37,554 nucleotides of DNA from a virus (lineage: Duplodnaviria > Heunggongvirae > Uroviricota > Caudoviricetes): IMG/VR virus record IMGVR_UViG_2695420600_000017. The stretch is one strand, 5' to 3'. Position 1 is the first letter of the stretch; each line of letters starts with the position of its first letter. Below are positions 2,687 through 33,726 of this stretch, one piece after another. Below the pieces are notes generated by a model. It was given only the letters and a program-made list of their open reading frames with translations, was not told the origin of the DNA and did no database searches. The position numbers and the translations under genes are program-made.

Positions 2687-4741
2687 TTACGCGTTATTCA
2701 CTTCCACCACGATACTGTCAATCAGTACCGGGTAAGTCGCATTTTTAGTGATATCGGTCACGCGCAACTTGTCTGCCGTAAACGTGCCGACCGGAGACTG
2801 CGACAGCATGAATGGTGTCCCGTCCTTACCATCAATGACCGGCGTCACCTCAATACTGTTGTTACCGGCAAAACGGAAGCCCAGCGTATGCCATTCGTTA
2901 TTAAATGCGCCGAATGACCCCAGCTTCGTGTTCTGCGCCGTGTTTCCTTTGTGATACATCACGTTAAGGTCTGTGGCATCGCTCTGTACGTAGAACGATG
3001 CCAGCAGGTTATGACCGGCATTTCCTTCCAGAGTAACCCCTTGCGGCAGGGCAGAAACCGGCCAGTACAGCGCCAGTGCGTACTGATTAGCCGTAAGCGC
3101 GCCATCGAGTTTAAAACGACAACTGACAAGACCACCTTTACCCAGCAGGTCCGCACCATTACCAGCATCATGCTCAAGGTACCAGGGGGCTCTTCCTGTT
3201 TCCTTGGTCAGTTTCATTGCCTTACCCCCGCTAGCTCCGGCATCATCCACGATTTGAGCCTTGCCACCTCCGGCAGCCCAACCCTGTGGTGTCAACCGTC
3301 CTTCAGACTCAGATGCCCGGTAAGCAAATAGCGTACTCATCGTCGTGGTGTCTGCGGGTGGCGTGGACGGTTTTGATGGTGTATCAGGTGACGGCTTCTC
3401 ATCCGGTGGTGTCACGGTCTGCCCGCGCATCAGTTCAGCCGTGCGCCCTGCATGGAGCATAATAGCTGAGGCCAGACGGTCTGAAATGACGCCCCTGCGT
3501 GCCCATGAGCTGAAATGGCTGTCACGCTGTGTCGAAACAAAACTGCCCTGGGTTCGGGATGCTGCACCGTAATACCCGACAGCCACAATATCCGGGTCTT
3601 CCGCCGGAGCATTCGTTGGCGTGCTCTGTCCATTCTCATCCGTCAGGAACGGTACAAAGAAAATTTTCTGTGCTTCCTTGCCTTTGTAGCCACCGTATAC
3701 TGCCTCATATTTATCGGTGCCAGCGTTTTTCCAGTAATACGTGGTATCACCGCAAATCCACGGCACCGTGGTGGCATTTCCACTCACGCACTGCGCAGCA
3801 AGCGGAGCCAGGTCAGTTCTGAACTGCTGAACCATGGCCGTGAATAAACTATTATGCTGCTGGCTTCCTGAGGCAAGGTCTGCCTCTCCCTGCATCCAGA
3901 CCACAGCCAGAAGTTTGTTTTTCGGGTTTTTCGCCAGCGCGACTTTGGTGCGGCTTACCAGGTCCTGATACAGAGGTTTACCGGCCCCCCAGCGTGAAGA
4001 ATCAGCGGAAGCACCGCTGGCCTCACTGAATGAGCCGTCGGCTCCAGTGGTGAATGCTGACCCGCCACGACAACAGGGCACCAGAAGTATCCCCGCATTC
4101 TGTGGGATATAGGGAAGCAGTTTTTTGGCAATATGCAACCCCTGACCGACAGTCCCGTACTGGCCTTTTGCCAGATCAGCTTTCGGGTGGTTTATCCCGC
4201 TCATATCCTGAACATCATGCAGGCAGTGGTCTGCCGGAATGATGTCGTTGTATGTACACGACGTACCGTTGGGCGTTACCGTACTGCGGCGTGCCAGTTG
4301 CTTAATGCGTGGGTCCGGGCGGTCAAACGAATCCGGTAACGGCAGCCCCTCGCCGTAGGCCATGCCATTTGACTGACCCGCGAGAATGACAACAAAGTAA
4401 TATTCCGGCTCTGAACTGCTGCCATTCGTGCTACCGGAAGGCCCGGCGTTATCCGGTGCATTCCAGTCGGAGGGCGTGAGCGTTCCGGCCACGTCAGATG
4501 TGATTGGAATGATGCCAGTCACGCCTGAACTGGTGATTTCTGCACTGGGATTACCGGATACCGGCATTACCCATAATGGCTCTTTCGTGCTGAAGCGGAT
4601 CACGCAGTCTGCGAAGGTGATCCCCCCTTTATTACCCGAAGGGCGGAAAGGGCTTTCAATAAATGCCACCGTGCCACCGGCAACCTTGACTGAAAACTCT
4701 CCGGGCATGGCGGAGAGCATTTTCCACTTGGAGTCTGACAT
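2687..4741 (-). CDS. Prophage sialate O-acetylesterase, NanS-p-like (SGNH/SASA esterase domain with N- and C-terminal accessory domains)
   Basis: 684-aa ORF with VVILAGQSNGMAYGEG (GQSN catalytic-serine block) and VVWMQGEAD (QGE(S/A)D block), characteristic of sialate 9-O-acetylesterases. Sits just beyond the tail-fibre genes, as nanS-p genes do in E. coli prophages. Family assignment is from motifs, not a search. Confidence 0.7.
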   Translation of the reverse strand: MSDSKWKMLSAMPGEFSVKVAGGTVAFIESPFRPSGNKGGITFADCVIRFSTKEPLWVMPVSGNPSAEITSSGVTGIIPITSDVAGTLTPSDWNAPDNAGPSGSTNGSSSEPEYYFVVILAGQSNGMAYGEGLPLPDSFDRPDPRIKQLARRSTVTPNGTSCTYNDIIPADHCLHDVQDMSGINHPKADLAKGQYGTVGQGLHIAKKLLPYIPQNAGILLVPCCRGGSAFTTGADGSFSEASGASADSSRWGAGKPLYQDLVSRTKVALAKNPKNKLLAVVWMQGEADLASGSQQHNSLFTAMVQQFRTDLAPLAAQCVSGNATTVPWICGDTTYYWKNAGTDKYEAVYGGYKGKEAQKIFFVPFLTDENGQSTPTNAPAEDPDIVAVGYYGAASRTQGSFVSTQRDSHFSSWARRGVISDRLASAIMLHAGRTAELMRGQTVTPPDEKPSPDTPSKPSTPPADTTTMSTLFAYRASESEGRLTPQGWAAGGGKAQIVDDAGASGGKAMKLTKETGRAPWYLEHDAGNGADLLGKGGLVSCRFKLDGALTANQYALALYWPVSALPQGVTLEGNAGHNLLASFYVQSDATDLNVMYHKGNTAQNTKLGSFGAFNNEWHTLGFRFAGNNSIEVTPVIDGKDGTPFMLSQSPVGTFTADKLRVTDITKNATYPVLIDSIVVEVNNA

Positions 4742-5045
4742 CGTCTTTTCTGCCTGTTTCTGAATTAAACAGAGTCAGAATAACAACCGCTGATAAATAT
4801 GTGTTTTGCGGAAATTCAAAAAAAGCATCACGGTACTTTTTGTGACGGAGCCGGTTAGGCAGGAACATAACGACAAAGGATGGACAGGCCAATACGATAA
4901 CCGCATATTACCGGCTTATAATTGATTTAACGATTCATGACGCTGCGGTCAGCATCTGAAAATATGCGTTATTTCAGAAACCCCTTGCCTGTATATGGCG
5001 ATATTATTATTCCTGTTTTTATCATTGATTTACATGGTGATGTTT

Positions 5046-28147: not shown

Positions 28148-28570
28148 TCAGAAAAGCCGTGGCTGCGTGCGTTCCTGATGCAGGCGACGCTGGTTGCGGA
28201 TAACGGAGTAAATCTGCGTCTCTGACATCTGGTAGTGGCGGCGCAGGGTTTCAATTTTTTCGCCCTGGCTCCAGCGGGAAAAAATTTCATTATTGCGCAG
28301 TTCGGTGAAAAGGGATTCACCGACCGGGAGATAATAACCACGCCCGCCCATGTACCCGGCCTGTGCGGCTGCAACCTTACGGGCAAGCATTCCCGCCTGA
28401 GCAGGTTCAATCCCCTGACGGTGCAGTTCAGCACTGATCACATCAACCAGGTCCCGCAGCGTGCCGGGCCAGTTCTTTTTCAGCTCATCATCAGGAATAT
28501 CATCCAGACGGTCAATCAGCGCGTGCAGCTGTTCGCTGTCACCAAACATGCTCATCTGTGTTTCAGCCAT
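28148..28570 (-). CDS. mor: Mor/C-family transcriptional activator (positional Mor; the only member of the family in the window)
   Basis: 140 aa directly downstream of gemA; MFGDSEQLHALIDRL N-terminus and C-terminal HTH (ETLRRHYQMSETQIYSVIRNQRRL) resemble recalled Mu Mor. Confidence 0.7.
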   Translation of the reverse strand: MAETQMSMFGDSEQLHALIDRLDDIPDDELKKNWPGTLRDLVDVISAELHRQGIEPAQAGMLARKVAAAQAGYMGGRGYYLPVGESLFTELRNNEIFSRWSQGEKIETLRRHYQMSETQIYSVIRNQRRLHQERTQPRLF

Positions 28571-28640
28571 ACCCGCCTCCGGTCATCATTACACAGGGCA
28601 AGTTTAAAATAAAAATCCCGCGCTGTGGCGGGATTTGGGG

Positions 28641-29217: not shown

Positions 29218-29628
29218 ATGAAAATAGATTACGATGAAGTATTAAGTATTCTCACAACTTTTCAGGATGCTGAAACACCTTTCCTTACACTACAGGATCT
29301 GGGCATGGCTGAGGCAGAAGGAGAGGAAAAGGATAAAAAAGTTTTTCATCTTATGCTTCTCGCTGATAATGGCTCAATTGTTAATGGTGATATGCGGTCA
29401 GAAACACCAAAATATATTGGTTTCTTTTTTCATTCTCTGGGCGTTGGTTTCAGAAACACGCCCATTATGCTTACTCAGCAGGGGCATGATTTAGCTAACG
29501 CCCTGAGAAAAAAACCAATCCTTGAAAGAATCAAAAAGGAGTTTACAGACGCGCCATTTGATCTAATCAAAGAAGTTACCAAATCAATGTTAACCAGGTT
29601 CGTCAAAGAACGTATTGGGATTGACTAA
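29218..29628 (+). CDS. Hypothetical protein (136 aa), antisense-oriented gene inside the early operon, low-GC island
   Basis: ORF with AAAGG SD; about 40% GC locally against about 55-60% around it; its 3' end overlaps the convergent 102-aa gene by 39 bp. Confidence 0.5.
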   Translation: MKIDYDEVLSILTTFQDAETPFLTLQDLGMAEAEGEEKDKKVFHLMLLADNGSIVNGDMRSETPKYIGFFFHSLGVGFRNTPIMLTQQGHDLANALRKKPILERIKKEFTDAPFDLIKEVTKSMLTRFVKERIGID

Positions 29629-29898
29629 ACAACTTAATTCAGCCAGTAATCGCAGGGCGGCGACAGCCGCCTGCTTGTCACTTCTTTTAGCTATTTCCGC
29701 AAGGGTATGCACAATCCATAACGGACTTAACGCTACGGCTGAATCCAGAATCATGTCATCCATAATAATTTCTGGCATATCCCGCTTGTCACATTCTTTA
29801 TCCATAAAAGAAACGAATTTTTCAGCATCTTCCGGTTTCATCCCTCCGGCGATAAGGATTTTGCGATATTCATAAGACGATCTTAATTCAATACTCAT
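29590..29898 (-). CDS. Hypothetical protein (102 aa), low-GC island
   Basis: ORF in the AT-rich segment; no recognisable motif. Confidence 0.45.
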   Translation of the reverse strand: MSIELRSSYEYRKILIAGGMKPEDAEKFVSFMDKECDKRDMPEIIMDDMILDSAVALSPLWIVHTLAEIAKRSDKQAAVAALRLLAELSCLVNPNTFFDEPG

Positions 29899-30306: not shown

Positions 30307-30590
30307 CAGTGCGTCACCTGTCCGTCTTCATCTTCAAGGCAGGCTCCGGTTTCTTCATCAACAAAAAAGCCTTCATACCCCATATGGCCGATGCGCAGCT
30401 CCTGACGGTGACCATACTGAACAATCAGCACGACAGCCTCCATATCAGGTGGGAAAGCATCATTCAGTGAATGCCAGGGATAACCGCGTAAATCCCCGAA
30501 ATAAACACCGGTCAGCGTTCCGCCACAGAGCGGCATTCCGGCGGCACACACAAGAGGTTCATCTGATTCAACAAATAAGGTCGTTATCAT
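30261..30590 (-). CDS. Hypothetical protein (109 aa)
   Basis: ORF in the early semi-essential region; start overlaps the upstream gene stop. Confidence 0.45.
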   Translation of the reverse strand: MITTLFVESDEPLVCAAGMPLCGGTLTGVYFGDLRGYPWHSLNDAFPPDMEAVVLIVQYGHRQELRIGHMGYEGFFVDEETGACLEDEDGQVTHWCHISALPELREVNA

Positions 30591-31138
30591 GGCGTTAACT
30601 CCCGTAATACAGCGTCCTCGGCAGTCCGGCGACGGTAATAAACTGCGTGAGCAGAATGTTCAGATATTCCAAACTTTTCGCCAATTTCCCGGAATGACAG
30701 ACGGCGTGGGTAATCGGAATCACGCAGCGCACGTATAAGACGTACATCATCATCAGATATGTGCGTGCCGGGGCGTAACTCTCCGCACTTTGTTAATCCA
30801 GCACCAATCATTCCTGCCCGACATCTGACAGAATCTTTATTACGTCCGAGATATTCTCCCATTTGCTGGCAGGTCATTGTTCTGGCATTTTTTCGAATAA
30901 ACTTATCTTCATCAGGTGTAAATCTTGGGTGTTTATATTTCAGTAACTCCGGGTATGAACTGCGCAATACACCAGTCCGGTTATATACAGCCCAGACAGT
31001 TCTTTTTATTCTGGCAGCAATATCCTTAACCGGGGTGGATGAATAAAGCGCAATCAGCAGCGCATCTTCTTCAGGTGTCCACGGACGGACATGAGCGGGG
31101 GCGCGACCTTTTAGTCCCATGGGTTGTAATTTCATCAT
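30587..31138 (-). CDS. DNA-binding protein with three tandem Myb/SANT-like HTH repeats
   Basis: Three repeats of about 45 aa: WTPEEDALLIALY...AVYNR, FTPDEDKFIRKNA...MGEYLGR, ISDDDVRLIRALR...EIGEKFGIS...AVYYRR. Confidence 0.55.
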   Translation of the reverse strand: MMKLQPMGLKGRAPAHVRPWTPEEDALLIALYSSTPVKDIAARIKRTVWAVYNRTGVLRSSYPELLKYKHPRFTPDEDKFIRKNARTMTCQQMGEYLGRNKDSVRCRAGMIGAGLTKCGELRPGTHISDDDVRLIRALRDSDYPRRLSFREIGEKFGISEHSAHAVYYRRRTAEDAVLRELTP

Positions 31139-31141
31139 GCA

Positions 31142-31657
31142 TCACCCCCTGACTCGCTTTTCAGCAGCATAAAACTCATCAGACAGTATTTCGGTCATTT
31201 TCTGTTTTGCGGGTTTTACGCCGCACTGAAGGTAAATCACATCGTCAACGCAGAACCACTTCACAGGGCCAAACAGGATTGCCGAGAAATCAATACCCAA
31301 CCAGAACAACAGCGCATCGGTTCTGGCATACGTGACGGGCGAATATTCACGCCACAGACTGTTCAGTTCATCAGAGGCAACACGCAGGGTTTTAGGGATA
31401 CGTGATGTGCGCGGTGTGCAGCTCCAGCCATTCGACGCAGTCGGTTTTCGCCATAAGTCGCGATGAAAAGGATATTTGTCCTCCGTAAAACGCAGTCCCT
31501 TAAAGTAAAATCCACTGATACCGGATACAAATACCGACCGGCACGCAACATTCAGCACGGCCTCAAGGCGTTTTGCCTCATCCTTAACTTTCTGGCAGTC
31601 CTGCTGGTATTTTTGCCACGCAGCCAGCGCGGAAGGGTTTGATGTTTTAAAGAACAT
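31142..31657 (-). CDS. Hypothetical protein (171 aa)
   Basis: ORF in the early region, coupled to its neighbours. Confidence 0.5.
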   Translation of the reverse strand: MFFKTSNPSALAAWQKYQQDCQKVKDEAKRLEAVLNVACRSVFVSGISGFYFKGLRFTEDKYPFHRDLWRKPTASNGWSCTPRTSRIPKTLRVASDELNSLWREYSPVTYARTDALLFWLGIDFSAILFGPVKWFCVDDVIYLQCGVKPAKQKMTEILSDEFYAAEKRVRG

Positions 31658-32190
31658 TACGCCACCTCCGCAGATATCCCGGCAGGCGCTGCTGTCCGGT
31701 CAACAATCAGGTAGCGCAGAACATGTTCAGTGATATTCCAGCCGCTTAAACCGCAGATAATGACGCCCAGGCGTATGTCGATATACGCCATCACAAACTG
31801 GGGCACGCCTTCTTTCATGGCCTGCTCATCAACTTCAGCCACCACATAAACGGTTTCACAGGTCAGAACGCCCTGAGCAAATTCCCACGCCATCGACGGA
31901 ATATCATGCCCCTCAATCCATGGCAGGGATTTTCTGAAGCCGCACCACTGAACATCATCAGCCGCAGATTCCTGGCTGCATTTGCGACGAACCGGCTGCA
32001 CCGGGCGGGGGCGCGGAATATCATAAAAACCGTTACATTCCGTCAGCACGCCTGCATCAACCGCATCACGCAGAAAATAAACCATGGAGGATGGCGGCAT
32101 ATTCATTTTTTCAGCCAGTACACCGCAGGTCAGGCGGCCATAAATACACAGCCAGTTTTTAACCCCTTCAAGCACTTTTGCATCAATCAT
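31657..32190 (-). CDS. Hypothetical protein (177 aa)
   Basis: ORF in the early region downstream of gam. Confidence 0.5.
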   Translation of the reverse strand: MIDAKVLEGVKNWLCIYGRLTCGVLAEKMNMPPSSMVYFLRDAVDAGVLTECNGFYDIPRPRPVQPVRRKCSQESAADDVQWCGFRKSLPWIEGHDIPSMAWEFAQGVLTCETVYVVAEVDEQAMKEGVPQFVMAYIDIRLGVIICGLSGWNITEHVLRYLIVDRTAAPAGISAEVA

Positions 32191-32335
32191 GATTTATTTC
32201 CCCACCACATTATTAATGACGATATAAACGTATTTCATATTTCTTAACCCTTATTTTCTGTTTTCAGGCGCAAGCAGTCCCCTGACGCGAGCGCCATAAT
32301 TAAAATGAAGTGATATTTAATTGATTAATGTGGTG

Positions 32336-32866
32336 TTATTTATTCAGTCCGGCGTCCTGTTCAAAAGGCTCGACATAAAAACTTTCAGCGCCTTTATTCA
32401 CCTTGATACCGGCAATGCCTTTCACAGCATCCGGCTCCGCCAGGACGGCTTCCTTGTTCACTTCCTCTTTCGTGCGGATGAAACGCTCAAGCCCCATACG
32501 GCGCAGCATTTCAATCACACCTTCCACATCACGGCTGACGCTGCATGATGGCGTTCCCAGCCGCCATGACACCGTTCCGGTGGTCAGATTGGCTGTTTTG
32601 GTTTTGCCGCCGTTCGTCAGCTCATCACGGTTGGTTTTGCACCAGTCCTGAATCCCTTTAAAAAGCACTTTGATTTGCTTTTTAAGATTTTCAATCTGCG
32701 GCGTATAACGGGCGGTGATTTCTGCCACTTCGTCATTCATCGCCGTTTCCAGGCGCAGCGCCTCTCGCTGAATATCTCCCAGGGTGCGGATATCACGGCT
32801 GACTTCTTCCCGGGTCTGCGGTGCCGCCTCGGCTGCGGCCTTTAATTTTGTAACGCGTTTAGCCAT
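32336..32866 (-). CDS. gam: Gam, host-nuclease inhibitor (Ku-like DNA end-binding protein)
   Basis: Blocks such as RDIRTLGDIQREALRLETAMNDEVAEIT, NRDELTNGGKTKTANLTTGTVSWR and ERFIRTKEEVNKEA match recalled Mu Gam. Confidence 0.9.
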   Translation of the reverse strand: MAKRVTKLKAAAEAAPQTREEVSRDIRTLGDIQREALRLETAMNDEVAEITARYTPQIENLKKQIKVLFKGIQDWCKTNRDELTNGGKTKTANLTTGTVSWRLGTPSCSVSRDVEGVIEMLRRMGLERFIRTKEEVNKEAVLAEPDAVKGIAGIKVNKGAESFYVEPFEQDAGLNK

Positions 32867-32877
32867 TTTGTTTTTCC

Positions 32878-33171
32878 TTATTGCAGTGTGCCTGATGCTT
32901 TATGCACGCGGTGGCGTTTAATGATGGCATCCGCTCCAAAAGACTGTGCAGATGCCTGAAATTCCGCTGAGAGAAACTGAATAATTGCAGGACTGTGATA
33001 CTGGAGAATACTTGCATAAACGTCACAGAGTGACGTCGGCCTGTTATCCGTATCACGTTCTGTTTTCACATCCACTCCAATCTTTTCATGCACTTCAACA
33101 CAGTCATTGCCTGCCAACTTTTCGTCATGCGAAACATGATTAAATTCAAAAATAACGCGTACTTTGCTCAT
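32878..33171 (-). CDS. Small protein (about 97 aa), paralogue of the adjacent upstream gene
   Basis: Start taken at MSKVRVIFEF; shares the N-terminus and a KASA/AEF block with the neighbour. Confidence 0.45.
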   Translation of the reverse strand: MSKVRVIFEFNHVSHDEKLAGNDCVEVHEKIGVDVKTERDTDNRPTSLCDVYASILQYHSPAIIQFLSAEFQASAQSFGADAIIKRHRVHKASGTLQ

Positions 33172-33175
33172 GGAA

Positions 33176-33448
33176 TTACCCCTGTTGATTAAATTCATTA
33201 CCGTTAATAACCCCGGAAGCCATGCCTCTGTCTTTCATGAATGCACTGGCTTTCATTGCCACAAACTCTGCGAAGTTTCTGCTTTCTGCCAGCATAACCA
33301 CCCCAAAAATCATGGCGGGTCCATTATCTTTCTTCTTTATTCCGGTTGAACGTATATCCAGACTTACCCCTCTGTGCGTGCTGCCATCAGAGTTTTTGCA
33401 GATAACATCTTCCTTGTATTCGAAAATAATGCGTACGACTTTACTCAT
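33176..33448 (-). CDS. Small protein (90 aa), paralogue of the adjacent downstream gene
   Basis: N-terminus MSKVVRIIFEYKED, similar to the neighbour. Confidence 0.45.
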   Translation of the reverse strand: MSKVVRIIFEYKEDVICKNSDGSTHRGVSLDIRSTGIKKKDNGPAMIFGVVMLAESRNFAEFVAMKASAFMKDRGMASGVINGNEFNQQG

Positions 33449-33726
33449 CCTCTGGTCCTCGTTCTGTTTGGATAACTGACCCGGCGTCTAACCTCACGGC
33501 AGAACCGAATCATGGCATTAAAGGCTTCTTCCTCCGTCACCGCTTCCGGTATCCCCGGAACCAGTAACTGCTCCTGTTCATCACGTCCATGACGCGCCAT
33601 AACCTCAATCACATGCCGTACCGTGGCAGGCTTTCCGGCAACTATCGGCAATGCACCTTCCGGCAGGACGTAACCAAACTCAATAAGACCACTCGACCAC
33701 GCCCATGCAATGAGATTTTTTTTCAC
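33445..33726 (-). CDS. Hypothetical protein (93 aa)
   Basis: ORF in the early region. Confidence 0.45.
   Translation of the reverse strand: MKKNLIAWAWSSGLIEFGYVLPEGALPIVAGKPATVRHVIEVMARHGRDEQEQLLVPGIPEAVTEEEAFNAMIRFCREVRRRVSYPNRTRTRG

What the first reader, a model, noticed from the sequence alone, without database searches (positions are those of the whole stretch)
30587..31138. Early protein built from three Myb/SANT-like repeats
The 183-aa protein contains three internal repeats of about 45 residues, each with acidic (E/D)(E/D)D and helix-turn-helix-like blocks. This is an unusual architecture for the Mu early region and may be a regulator or host-takeover factor.
Basis: seen in the sequence. 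Interest (0 to 1): 0.4.

Follow-up and report, generated by a model that had tools for sequence, protein, structure and literature searches.

The report
Phage early three-repeat DNA-binding protein
This is a real 183-residue early gene of a Mu-like E. coli prophage, built from three tandem Myb-like helix-turn-helix modules; it belongs to a known phage family (T5 D5, Mu gp9) that no one has studied in this phage group, so it is a sound but fairly ordinary finding.

Summary

"Myb/SANT-like" fits as a fold description. This protein falls below Pfam's Myb cut-off, and R3 looks like a generic AsnC or sigma-70 region-4 type HTH.

The gene belongs to PHROG 323, "D5-like". It aligns across all three repeats with phage T5 D5, a DNA-binding protein affecting replication and late gene expression. 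Mu's own gp9 is a two-repeat relative, so the fold is not foreign to Mu early regions. The gene occurs in 232 of 5426 complete E. coli genomes and also in the early operon of P2-like prophages.

Most likely it is a basic (pI 9.9) dsDNA-binding early accessory regulator. Its exact role is untested. New member of a known kind; modest interest.

The parts
30587..31138 (-). Complete CDS, 183 aa plus stop: D5/gp9-family early protein with three tandem HTH repeats
   Evidence: ORF list. PHROG 323 match at E 1.3e-52. 99.9% identical DNA in E. coli TOE17, annotated WP_000977058.1 'SANT/Myb-like DNA-binding domain-containing protein'. dN/dS about 0.25 against the second allele.
31145..31149 (-). GGGGG Shine-Dalgarno-like run upstream of the ATG; the upstream gene's stop (31142-31144) lies 3 nt before the start codon
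   Evidence: Read directly from the sequence. No promoter- or terminator-like site beyond chance next to the gene.
31085..31138 (-). N-terminal arm, aa 1-18 (MMKLQPMGLKGRAPAHVR): basic, predicted disordered, yet conserved across the family
   Evidence: pLDDT below 50 for residues 1-16. M2, L4, G11, H16 and V17 are invariant in A1. Mean entropy 1.69, lower than in the recognition helices. 4 K/R and no D/E.
30959..31084 (-). Repeat 1, aa 19-60: PWTPEED... Myb-like three-helix unit (H22-31, H37-44, H48-59)
   Evidence: AF2 model. Pfam Myb_DNA-binding partial match at 20.7 bits. W20 is invariant in 31 relatives. hhalign R1 vs R2 98.8%.
30803..30925 (-). Repeat 2, aa 72-112: RFTPDED... three-helix unit (H75-84, H90-97, H101-110)
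   Evidence: AF2 model. hhalign R1-R2 and R2-R3. Aligns to c-Myb R3 in the colinear R2R3 match.
30764..30802 (-). Conserved R2-R3 linker, aa 113-125 (AGLTKCGELRPGT); K117 and G119 are invariant family-wide
   Evidence: Alignment A2 has four invariant columns: W20, K117, G119 and D129, the last lying just inside R3. Mean entropy 1.69 for residues 111-128.
30629..30763 (-). Repeat 3, aa 126-170: ISDDDVRLIRALRD...LSFREIGEKFGIS...: diverged HTH unit (H129-140, H149-156, H160-169) and the best-conserved part of the family
   Evidence: AF2 model. Sub-threshold Pfam matches to HTH_AsnC-type, HTH_10 and Sigma70_r4. hhalign R2-R3 91.7% with a 5-aa insertion. Entropy 1.06 for H1 and 1.21 for H2.
30590..30628 (-). 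C-terminal helix, aa 171-183 (RTAEDAVLRELTP); T172 and P183 are conserved
   Evidence: AF2 helix H173-181; alignment A2.
30620..31040 (-). Allelic divergent patch inside the gene (about aa 34-172): 63-75% nucleotide identity to the common E. coli allele, while both gene ends and the flanking genes are 88-100% identical
   Evidence: Sliding identity against L021 and L025. dS 0.61-0.66 in this gene against 0.07-0.27 in the flanks. Two discrete allele classes in E. coli genomes.

Best explanation
The gene encodes a small, basic double-stranded-DNA-binding protein of the phage D5/gp9 family (PHROG 323). It is expressed from the early lytic operon of a Mu-like prophage.

The protein is a string of three homologous three-helix (Myb/homeodomain-like) helix-turn-helix modules on short linkers. 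A conserved basic N-terminal arm precedes them and a short C-terminal helix follows. I infer that each module places its third helix in the major groove, as in c-Myb R2R3, Tc3/Mos1 transposase DNA-binding domains and the archaeal Cbp2 protein. The protein would then track along about 2-3 turns of DNA, with the arm possibly lying in the minor groove.

By analogy with T5 D5, the only studied relative, its most likely job is to modulate transcription, DNA replication or both during early lytic development. It would be an accessory regulator, not the main switch, because this phage has its own Mor (and Mu-type phages a Mor/C cascade).

Shown here: the gene is real and sits in the operon; the repeat architecture and fold; family membership; distribution. 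Inferred: DNA binding, binding mode and physiological role.
For: - Real coding gene: dN/dS 0.25, and present in 232 of 5426 complete E. coli genomes.
- Early operon: it lies between gam and gemA/mor, translationally coupled or abutting on both sides, with no promoter or terminator of its own.
- Three homologous repeats that fold as three three-helix bundles at pLDDT 82.
- pI 9.9, with 34 K/R against 22 D/E.
- PHROG 323 'transcriptional regulator, D5-like' at E 1.3e-52. hhalign to T5 D5 gives 96.7%, E 4.6e-10, over all three repeats. D5 itself matches PHROG 323 at E 1.2e-71. The T5 record describes D5 as a DNA-binding protein required for DNA replication and late transcription and involved in shut-off. 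The primary paper's title is cited.
- In three unrelated phage types the family member sits in the early or replication gene block: here between gam and gemA; in P2-like prophages between cox and replication gene A; in T5 between ligase and the helicase/primase/polymerase genes.
- Among the Mu-type records examined, the window and the 16 phage records matched by gp9 (14 of them Mu, D108, SfMu and Yersinia Mu-type phages), each carries one family member: two-repeat gp9 upstream of gam, or the three-repeat gene after gp12. The window has no second copy, and no record appears in both hit lists at two different sites.
Against: - No experiment exists for this protein or for Mu gp9; literature searches found nothing.
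- Similarity to D5 is remote, and the roughly 70-residue N-terminal part of D5 is absent, so the D5 function may not transfer.
- SANT-type domains and sigma-70 region-4-like units can bind proteins instead of DNA.
- The third (recognition) helices are the most variable helices of each repeat. That fits either divergent sequence specificity or weak constraint.
- pTM is 0.52, so the relative arrangement of the modules is not defined.
- No candidate binding site was identified.
Confidence: 0.55

Rival explanations
1. Protein-binding adaptor or host-takeover factor. The HTH-like modules would act as SANT-like or sigma-70 region-4-like protein interaction units that dock on RNA polymerase, a sigma factor or another host protein and redirect or inhibit it, rather than binding DNA.
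Against: The protein is strongly basic (pI 9.9). The only characterised relative, T5 D5, is a DNA-binding protein. There are no other sigma regions. Most top structural matches are DNA-bound Myb, Tc3 or Rap1 domains.
Confidence: 0.15
2. Arms-race gene. It would be an anti-defence, superinfection or inter-phage competition factor, for example one that silences a rival element or host defence locus by sequence-specific binding. Its specificity would be diversified by allele exchange.
For: There are two deep allele classes in otherwise near-identical prophages: 72-74% aa identity, dS 0.6 against 0.07-0.27 in the flanks. The same pattern occurs in P2-like prophages, where this gene is 56-58% identical while neighbours are 92-99%. 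It is the only gene within 6 kb on either side that Mu-like and P2-like early regions share. Its recognition helices are the most variable helices.
Against: There is no match in PADLOC, although that library holds defence rather than anti-defence proteins. dN/dS is 0.25, which is purifying selection and not positive selection. Neighbouring early genes (o106, o90, mor) show the same two-class mosaicism, so the pattern is regional and not specific to this gene. The gene is fixed in its prophage lineage, not sporadic.
Confidence: 0.12
3. Orphaned DNA-binding module of a homing endonuclease or methylase: a leftover targeting domain with little function of its own.
For: Two-repeat stretches match HNH endonuclease or DNA methylase genes of mycobacteriophages at 34% identity. 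There are weak matches to PHROGs annotated as HNH endonuclease. Endonucleases with the same tandem fold appear in BFVD.
Against: There is no nuclease domain in the ORF or next to it. Purifying selection acts on it and it is conserved at full length in 232 E. coli genomes, in Salmonella and in P2-like phages. The N-arm, linker and R3 are conserved family-specific features.
Confidence: 0.03

Closest known systems
Bacteriophage T5 D5 protein (T5.118, YP_006946.1), PHROG 323
   Same: Same PHROG family. A colinear alignment covers all three repeats (hhalign 96.7%, E 4.6e-10). It is also an early gene embedded among replication genes. It is described as a DNA-binding protein affecting replication and late gene expression.
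   Different: D5 is 255 aa and has an extra N-terminal part of about 70 residues that this protein lacks. Sequence identity is only about 25%. T5 is a virulent phage with a different transcription programme. Whether the Mu-like protein shares any D5 phenotype is unknown.
Phage Mu gp9 (E8, Mup09, 99 aa) and its copies in D108, SfMu and Yersinia Mu-like phages
   Same: Same family: PHROG 323 at E 5e-29, and hhalign to the family profile 98.3%, E 1.3e-14. It aligns to repeats 2 and 3. It also lies in the semi-essential early region of a transposable phage.
   Different: It has only two repeats, with no R1 and no N-terminal arm, and a shorter R2-R3 linker. It lies upstream of gam, not after gp12. 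Its function is also unknown.
c-Myb R2R3 and other eukaryotic Myb/SANT repeats (Pfam PF00249)
   Different: The score is below Pfam's cut-off (20.7 against 24.4 bits). The second and third core tryptophans are replaced by aliphatic or Tyr residues. The third repeat looks like a generic bacterial HTH. Nothing here speaks for or against direct descent from eukaryotic Myb.
Cbp2 CRISPR-repeat-binding protein (PDB 2LVS) and Tc3/Mos1 transposase bipartite DNA-binding domains
   Different: They have two modules, not three, and different biology (CRISPR arrays, transposon ends). The similarity is weak and at the level of fold and architecture only.
GcrA DNA-binding domain (PDB 5YIU)
   Different: GcrA has one such domain plus a sigma-70-binding domain. 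There is no sequence-level family match for this protein.

Membership tests
PHROG 323 (T5 D5-like transcriptional regulators) | Significant match to the family profile | tested here: met
   E 1.3e-52, 180 bits, residues 2-182 on profile positions 80-256. T5 D5 matches the same profile at E 1.2e-71, and Mu gp9 at 5e-29.
PHROG 323 (T5 D5-like transcriptional regulators) | Colinear homology to T5 D5 itself over the repeat region | tested here: met
   hhalign of A1 against D5: 96.7%, E 4.6e-10, 151 columns, query 17-171 on D5 71-232.
PHROG 323 (T5 D5-like transcriptional regulators) | N-terminal part of D5, about 70 residues | tested here: not met
   The alignment starts at D5 residue 71. This protein has only an 18-residue arm before repeat 1.
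PHROG 323 (T5 D5-like transcriptional regulators) | dsDNA binding, with effects on replication and late transcription | not testable with these tools
   Known for D5 only from the T5 record and from the title of McCorquodale et al. 1979. No data exist for this protein.
Myb/SANT domain (Pfam PF00249 / PF13921) | Score at or above Pfam's gathering cut-off | tested here: not met
   20.7 bits against 24.4 for PF00249, and 17.3 against 22.9 for PF13921. 19 of 31 relatives match at E<0.01, and a multi-repeat relative, P0023, scores 140 bits.
Myb/SANT domain (Pfam PF00249 / PF13921) | Three-helix bundle of about 50 residues with an HTH formed by helices 2 and 3 | tested here: met
Myb/SANT domain (Pfam PF00249 / PF13921) | Three regularly spaced tryptophans (or aromatics) forming the core of each repeat | tested here: not met
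   Only the first position is aromatic and conserved: W20 invariant in R1, and F73 in R2. R3 has I127 there. The second and third positions are aliphatic or Tyr (sequence; alignment A2).
Myb/SANT domain (Pfam PF00249 / PF13921) | Tandem repeats with Myb-like spacing | tested here: met
   The period is exactly 53 residues (sequence). The family profile aligns colinearly to c-Myb R2R3 in 1h88_C, 19-107 on 60-150, E 2.5e-4.
AsnC/Lrp family (name given by several databases) | N-terminal AsnC-type HTH plus C-terminal RAM (AsnC_trans_reg) ligand-binding domain | tested here: not met
   Only a sub-threshold HTH_AsnC-type match on repeat 3 (19.1 against 27 bits), and no RAM domain. 'AsnC family protein' is a misnomer.
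Sigma-70 family | Region 4 together with regions 2 (and 3) | tested here: not met
   Sigma70_r4 scores 12.1 bits against 24.1 on repeat 3 only. TIGR02937 scores 12 against 42.9 bits. No region 2 or 3 is present.
Known anti-phage defence proteins (PADLOC) | Match to any defence-system protein model | tested here: not met
   No hit for this protein or for six neighbours at E<=0.01.

The most novel reading that the evidence does not exclude
The D5/gp9 family would be a universal early function of transposable (Mu-type) phages that has not been recognised as such. Each Mu-type genome examined here carries one member, either two-repeat gp9 upstream of gam or this three-repeat form after gp12. The protein would act as a sequence-specific, allele-diversified DNA-binding factor that boosts phage replication or reprogrammes transcription. 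It could correspond to one of the classically mapped but never assigned semi-essential early functions of Mu. That last link is recalled from memory and was not verified here. The three-repeat form would be a mobile cassette exchanged between Mu-like and P2-like phages.
Probability: 0.12. Interest if true: 0.5.

Novelty: new member of a known kind. Interest (0 to 1): 0.25.

Why it matters
If the protein really binds DNA through three tandem Myb-like modules, it gives a function-level handle on one of the many unassigned genes of the Mu semi-essential early region. It also links three phage groups (T5-like, Mu-like, P2-like) through one shared early DNA-binding factor. The prophage lineage that carries it is common in pathogenic E. 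coli, including O157:H7, so an early regulator of its induction has some practical interest. The architecture is already annotated by NCBI's pipeline, the family is already in PHROGs, and nothing here contradicts expectation. The value is incremental: a corrected family assignment (D5/gp9 family, not AsnC) and a clear, cheap set of experiments.

Tried and rejected
- **Single-sequence repeat detection.** Smith-Waterman against shuffles gave only z 3.1, 1.6 and -0.1, which is not convincing alone. I replaced it with profile-profile comparison.
- **Positive selection as the cause of allele divergence.** Rejected. dN/dS is 0.25 and dS is raised 3-9 fold over the flanks, so this is an old allele brought in by recombination. 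Several neighbouring genes have the same two-class pattern.
- **Linkage of the allele to other variable modules**, which would have hinted at a co-varying target. The presence or absence of o93, o130, o102 and DUF2513 varies independently of the allele.
- **Defence-system membership.** No PADLOC hits.
- **A second family member in the window.** None found with a family HMM over six-frame ORFs.
- **Own promoter or terminator.** Nothing beyond chance. No Rfam family in the window.
- **Species range from genome contigs.** The scan with A1 returned 115 pattern matches but no confirmed relative. A2 was too diverse to derive search patterns.
- **Literature.** No paper found on this protein, on Mu gp9 or on Myb-like proteins in Mu-like prophages. 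A DRT4 paper on a T5 DNA-binding protein concerns ORF55, not D5. The 1979 D5 paper is not held.
- **The + strand ORF 30759..31046 (95 aa)** inside the gene. I treat it as a shadow ORF, because the minus-strand frame has homologues under purifying selection.

Full report
**1. What is at the coordinates.**
Positions 30587..31138 are one ORF on the minus strand: 183 codons plus stop. Its stop overlaps the start of the next gene as ATGA. Its ATG lies 3 nt after the stop of the upstream gene, behind a GGGGG run (sequence). A consensus scan finds no promoter- or terminator-like site beyond chance beside it.

The window is a Mu-like prophage of E. coli. The DNA is 99.9% identical to strain TOE17, where the gene is WP_000977058.1, 'SANT/Myb-like DNA-binding domain-containing protein'. 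The gene order on the minus strand is:

- Mu transposase A, then B
- small ORFs
- gam
- a gp11-like gene (Pfam Gp11_C)
- a gp12-like gene (phrog_2314)
- this gene
- small ORFs of unknown function
- gemA (gp16 family), mor, then lysozyme.

So this is an early-operon gene of the semi-essential early region. It sits where Mu itself has gp13/gp14.

**2. Are the repeats real?**
The acidic triplets are E23-E24-D25, D76-E77-D78 and D129-D130-D131, exactly 53 residues apart, and each lies at the start of a predicted first helix. On the single sequence the similarity is weak: Smith-Waterman against shuffles gives z 3.1 for R1-R2, 1.6 for R2-R3 and nothing for R1-R3. With homologues it is clear. The hhalign results for the three segments taken from the 31-sequence family alignment are (the 13-sequence version is):

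| Pair | Probability | E-value | Note |
|---|---|---|---|
| R1-R2 | 98.8% | 4.7e-17 | |
| R2-R3 | 91.7% | 7.8e-7 | in register, 5-residue insertion before helix 2 of R3 |
| R1-R3 | 86.6% | 4.5e-6 | helix 2 to helix 3 part only |

AlphaFold2 with the 13-sequence alignment gives mean pLDDT 82.4. It predicts three consecutive three-helix units, a disordered N-terminus (residues 1-16) and a short C-terminal helix. pTM is 0.52, so the modules are confidently folded but their mutual orientation is not fixed.

**3. What fold and what family?**
- **Sequence profile against PDB.** The family profile finds c-Myb R2R3 colinearly (E 2.5e-4) and the tandem-HTH CRISPR-repeat-binding protein 2LVS (E 4.9e-4).
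- **Whole-model Foldseek against PDB.** Nothing significant, though 2LVS, SNAPc4 and Tc3 rank at the top.
- **BFVD.** 25 phage proteins reach E<=1e-3. Many are 100-to-320-residue tandem-HTH proteins, mostly uncharacterised. They include a 'D5 protein', 'Myb-like' and 'AsnC family' proteins, and some endonucleases.
- **Pfam on this protein.** Everything is below cut-off: Myb 20.7 against 24.4 bits on R1; AsnC-type HTH, HTH_10 and Sigma70_r4 on R3.
- **Pfam over 31 family members.** Sigma70_r4 is hit by 21 and Myb by 19.

'Myb/SANT-like' is thus a fair fold label for R1 and R2. R3 is a diverged copy that resembles generic bacterial HTH units. 'AsnC family', used by several sources, is wrong, because there is no RAM domain.

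**4. The informative family assignment.**
PHROGs places the protein in phrog_323, 'transcriptional regulator, D5-like' (E 1.3e-52). The T5 D5 protein (T5.118, 255 aa) matches that profile at E 1.2e-71. It aligns with this family over all three repeats: hhalign 96.7%, E 4.6e-10, residues 17-171 on D5 71-232. The T5 record describes D5 as a DNA-binding protein required for DNA replication and late transcription and involved in shut-off. [quoted passage not shown] It is cited in PMC12630848, and the paper itself is not held.

Mu has its own member. gp9 (E8, 99 aa), just upstream of gam, matches phrog_323 at E 5e-29. It aligns to R2+R3 of this family at 98.3%, E 1.3e-14. gp9 is present in Mu, D108, SfMu and the Yersinia Mu-like phages. 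Those records do not appear among the matches to the three-repeat protein, and the window has no second family member. So among the Mu-type genomes examined, each carries one member, in one of two forms and positions.

**5. Distribution and context.**
The word-indexed search finds only close relatives in E. coli and Salmonella. The exhaustive profile search finds 9,895 proteins at E<=1e-3. They include about 30 other 170-to-195-residue three-repeat proteins and many long proteins with 4-9 copies of the R1/R2-type repeat. One example is P0023, a helicase followed by nine repeats, which scores 140 bits on Pfam Myb.

In complete E. coli genomes the gene occurs in 232 of 5426. That is the same number that carry the adjacent gp11/gp12-like pair at full length, so it is fixed in this prophage lineage.

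In IMG/VR, 63 loci encode relatives:

- Loci L002-L043 are Mu-like with the same neighbours.
- Loci L044-L064 share no flanking gene with the window. They are P2-like prophages, as is Citrobacter phage Shae_phiSM (Peduoviridae). There the gene lies in the early operon between cox/ead and the replication endonuclease gene A.

The gene has therefore moved between two unrelated temperate phage types. In each it sits in the early lytic operon, as D5 does in T5.

**6. Alleles.**
E. coli prophages carry two discrete classes. Twenty-nine records have at least 90% nucleotide identity to the window. The other 204 have 60-80%, and these include O157:H7 strains. Against two prophages of the second class the comparison is:

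| Measure | This gene | Flanking genes |
|---|---|---|
| Amino-acid identity | 72-74% | 91-98% |
| dS | 0.61-0.66 | 0.07-0.27 |
| dN/dS | 0.25 | - |

. The divergent patch lies inside the gene, at about 30620-31040 (aa 34-172), and both ends of the gene are conserved. This is recombinational replacement by an old allele under purifying selection, not positive selection. P2-like prophages show the same thing: 56-58% identity here against 92-99% in neighbours. However, o106, o90 and mor also have two classes, and several small ORFs come and go independently of the allele. The mosaicism is therefore regional and not specific to this gene.

**7. Conservation pattern.**
Over 31 relatives the invariant residues are W20, K117, G119 and D129. 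The best-conserved segments are R3 helices 1 and 2, the R2-R3 linker (K-C-G-D/E ... T-K-Y-x-D-x-D-V) and the N-terminal arm. The third helix of every repeat is the most variable helix. The protein is basic: pI 9.9, 34 K/R against 22 D/E, with 4 K/R and no acidic residue in the arm.

**8. How it most likely works.**
- **Shown:** three homologous three-helix HTH modules in a basic early-operon protein of the D5/gp9 family.
- **Inferred:** it binds double-stranded DNA. Each module uses its third helix in the major groove, as established for Myb R2R3, Tc3/Mos1 and homeodomains. It would span two to three helical turns, and the basic arm may add minor-groove or backbone contacts. Variable recognition helices and deep alleles fit either diversified sequence specificity or low-specificity binding.
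- **By analogy with D5:** the likely role is modulation of transcription, replication or both in early lytic growth, as an accessory factor. This phage has its own Mor, so the main switch is elsewhere.

I put about 0.8 on DNA binding and 0.55 on the whole statement. Three rivals remain:

- a protein-binding adaptor, SANT-like or sigma region-4-like (0.15)
- an arms-race or competition factor (0.12)
- an orphaned endonuclease targeting module (0.03).

**9. Novelty and verdict.**
The protein is already labelled SANT/Myb-like by NCBI and is already in a PHROG that includes T5 D5 and Mu gp9. What this analysis adds:

- the explicit three-repeat homology
- the link to D5 and gp9
- the complementary gp9 / three-repeat distribution in Mu-type phages
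- the transfer to P2-like phages
- the internal allelic patch.

It is a new member of a known kind, of modest interest (0.25). Its function remains experimentally open.

Noticed in passing
L065:5265-5462 (Citrobacter phage Shae_phiSM; same region in L050, L053, L063): In P2-like relatives, the roughly 320-bp gap right after the D5-like gene holds two known RNAs: isrK (66.6 bits) and the C4 antisense RNA (84.1 bits). The short target boxes co-vary between phages (for example TTGGAACC/CAACCAAAG against TTCTCAAC/CAAACGAAG), as expected for a c4-type immunity module. The window has no Rfam hit.
   Followed up: partly
window 29218..29628 (+): A DUF2513-like ORF (136 aa, phrog_585) lies on the opposite strand inside the minus-strand early operon. 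Its 3' end overlaps the 3' end of ORF 29590..29898. It is present in only some related prophages, so it may be an independently expressed moron.
   Followed up: partly
window 28613..28636 (-): A strong terminator-like hairpin (9 pairs followed by a T-run) sits in the 70-bp gap between gemA and mor. In Mu these two genes overlap.
   Followed up: no
window 32878..33726 and 28148..28570; loci L002-L043: The whole early region is mosaic. o106 has two classes (about 60% against 92-100% aa identity), o90 has about 80% against 100%, and mor about 83% against 100%. o93, o130, o102 and DUF2513 come and go independently of one another.
   Followed up: partly
window 32190..32336, compared with L021 and L025 at about 4280-4949: Prophages with the other allele carry about 520 extra bases between gam and the gp11-like gene, where the window has only a 145-bp gap. 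I did not examine the content of the insert.
   Followed up: no
P0023, P0031, P0075 and about 100 other long proteins; T5.108 at L066:9546-12332: Many prokaryotic or viral proteins carry 4-9 tandem copies of the same Myb-like unit. Some have an N-terminal helicase: P0023 scores 140 bits on Pfam Myb over 7 stretches. T5's 'replication origin binding' protein T5.108 is annotated with a SANT/Myb plus helicase combination. I could not establish the origin or role of these repeat arrays.
   Followed up: partly
L067:1483-1782 (phage Mu gp9/E8): Mu gp9 is a two-repeat member of the D5-like family with no known function. It is conserved at 86-100% in Mu, D108, SfMu and the Yersinia Mu-like phages.
   Followed up: yes
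Genome-contig scan: The scan with the family alignment matched 115 stretches by pattern, but tblastn confirmed none. Yet the gene is in 232 complete E. coli genomes. Presumably the species-representative genomes lack this prophage, but I did not check.
   Followed up: no
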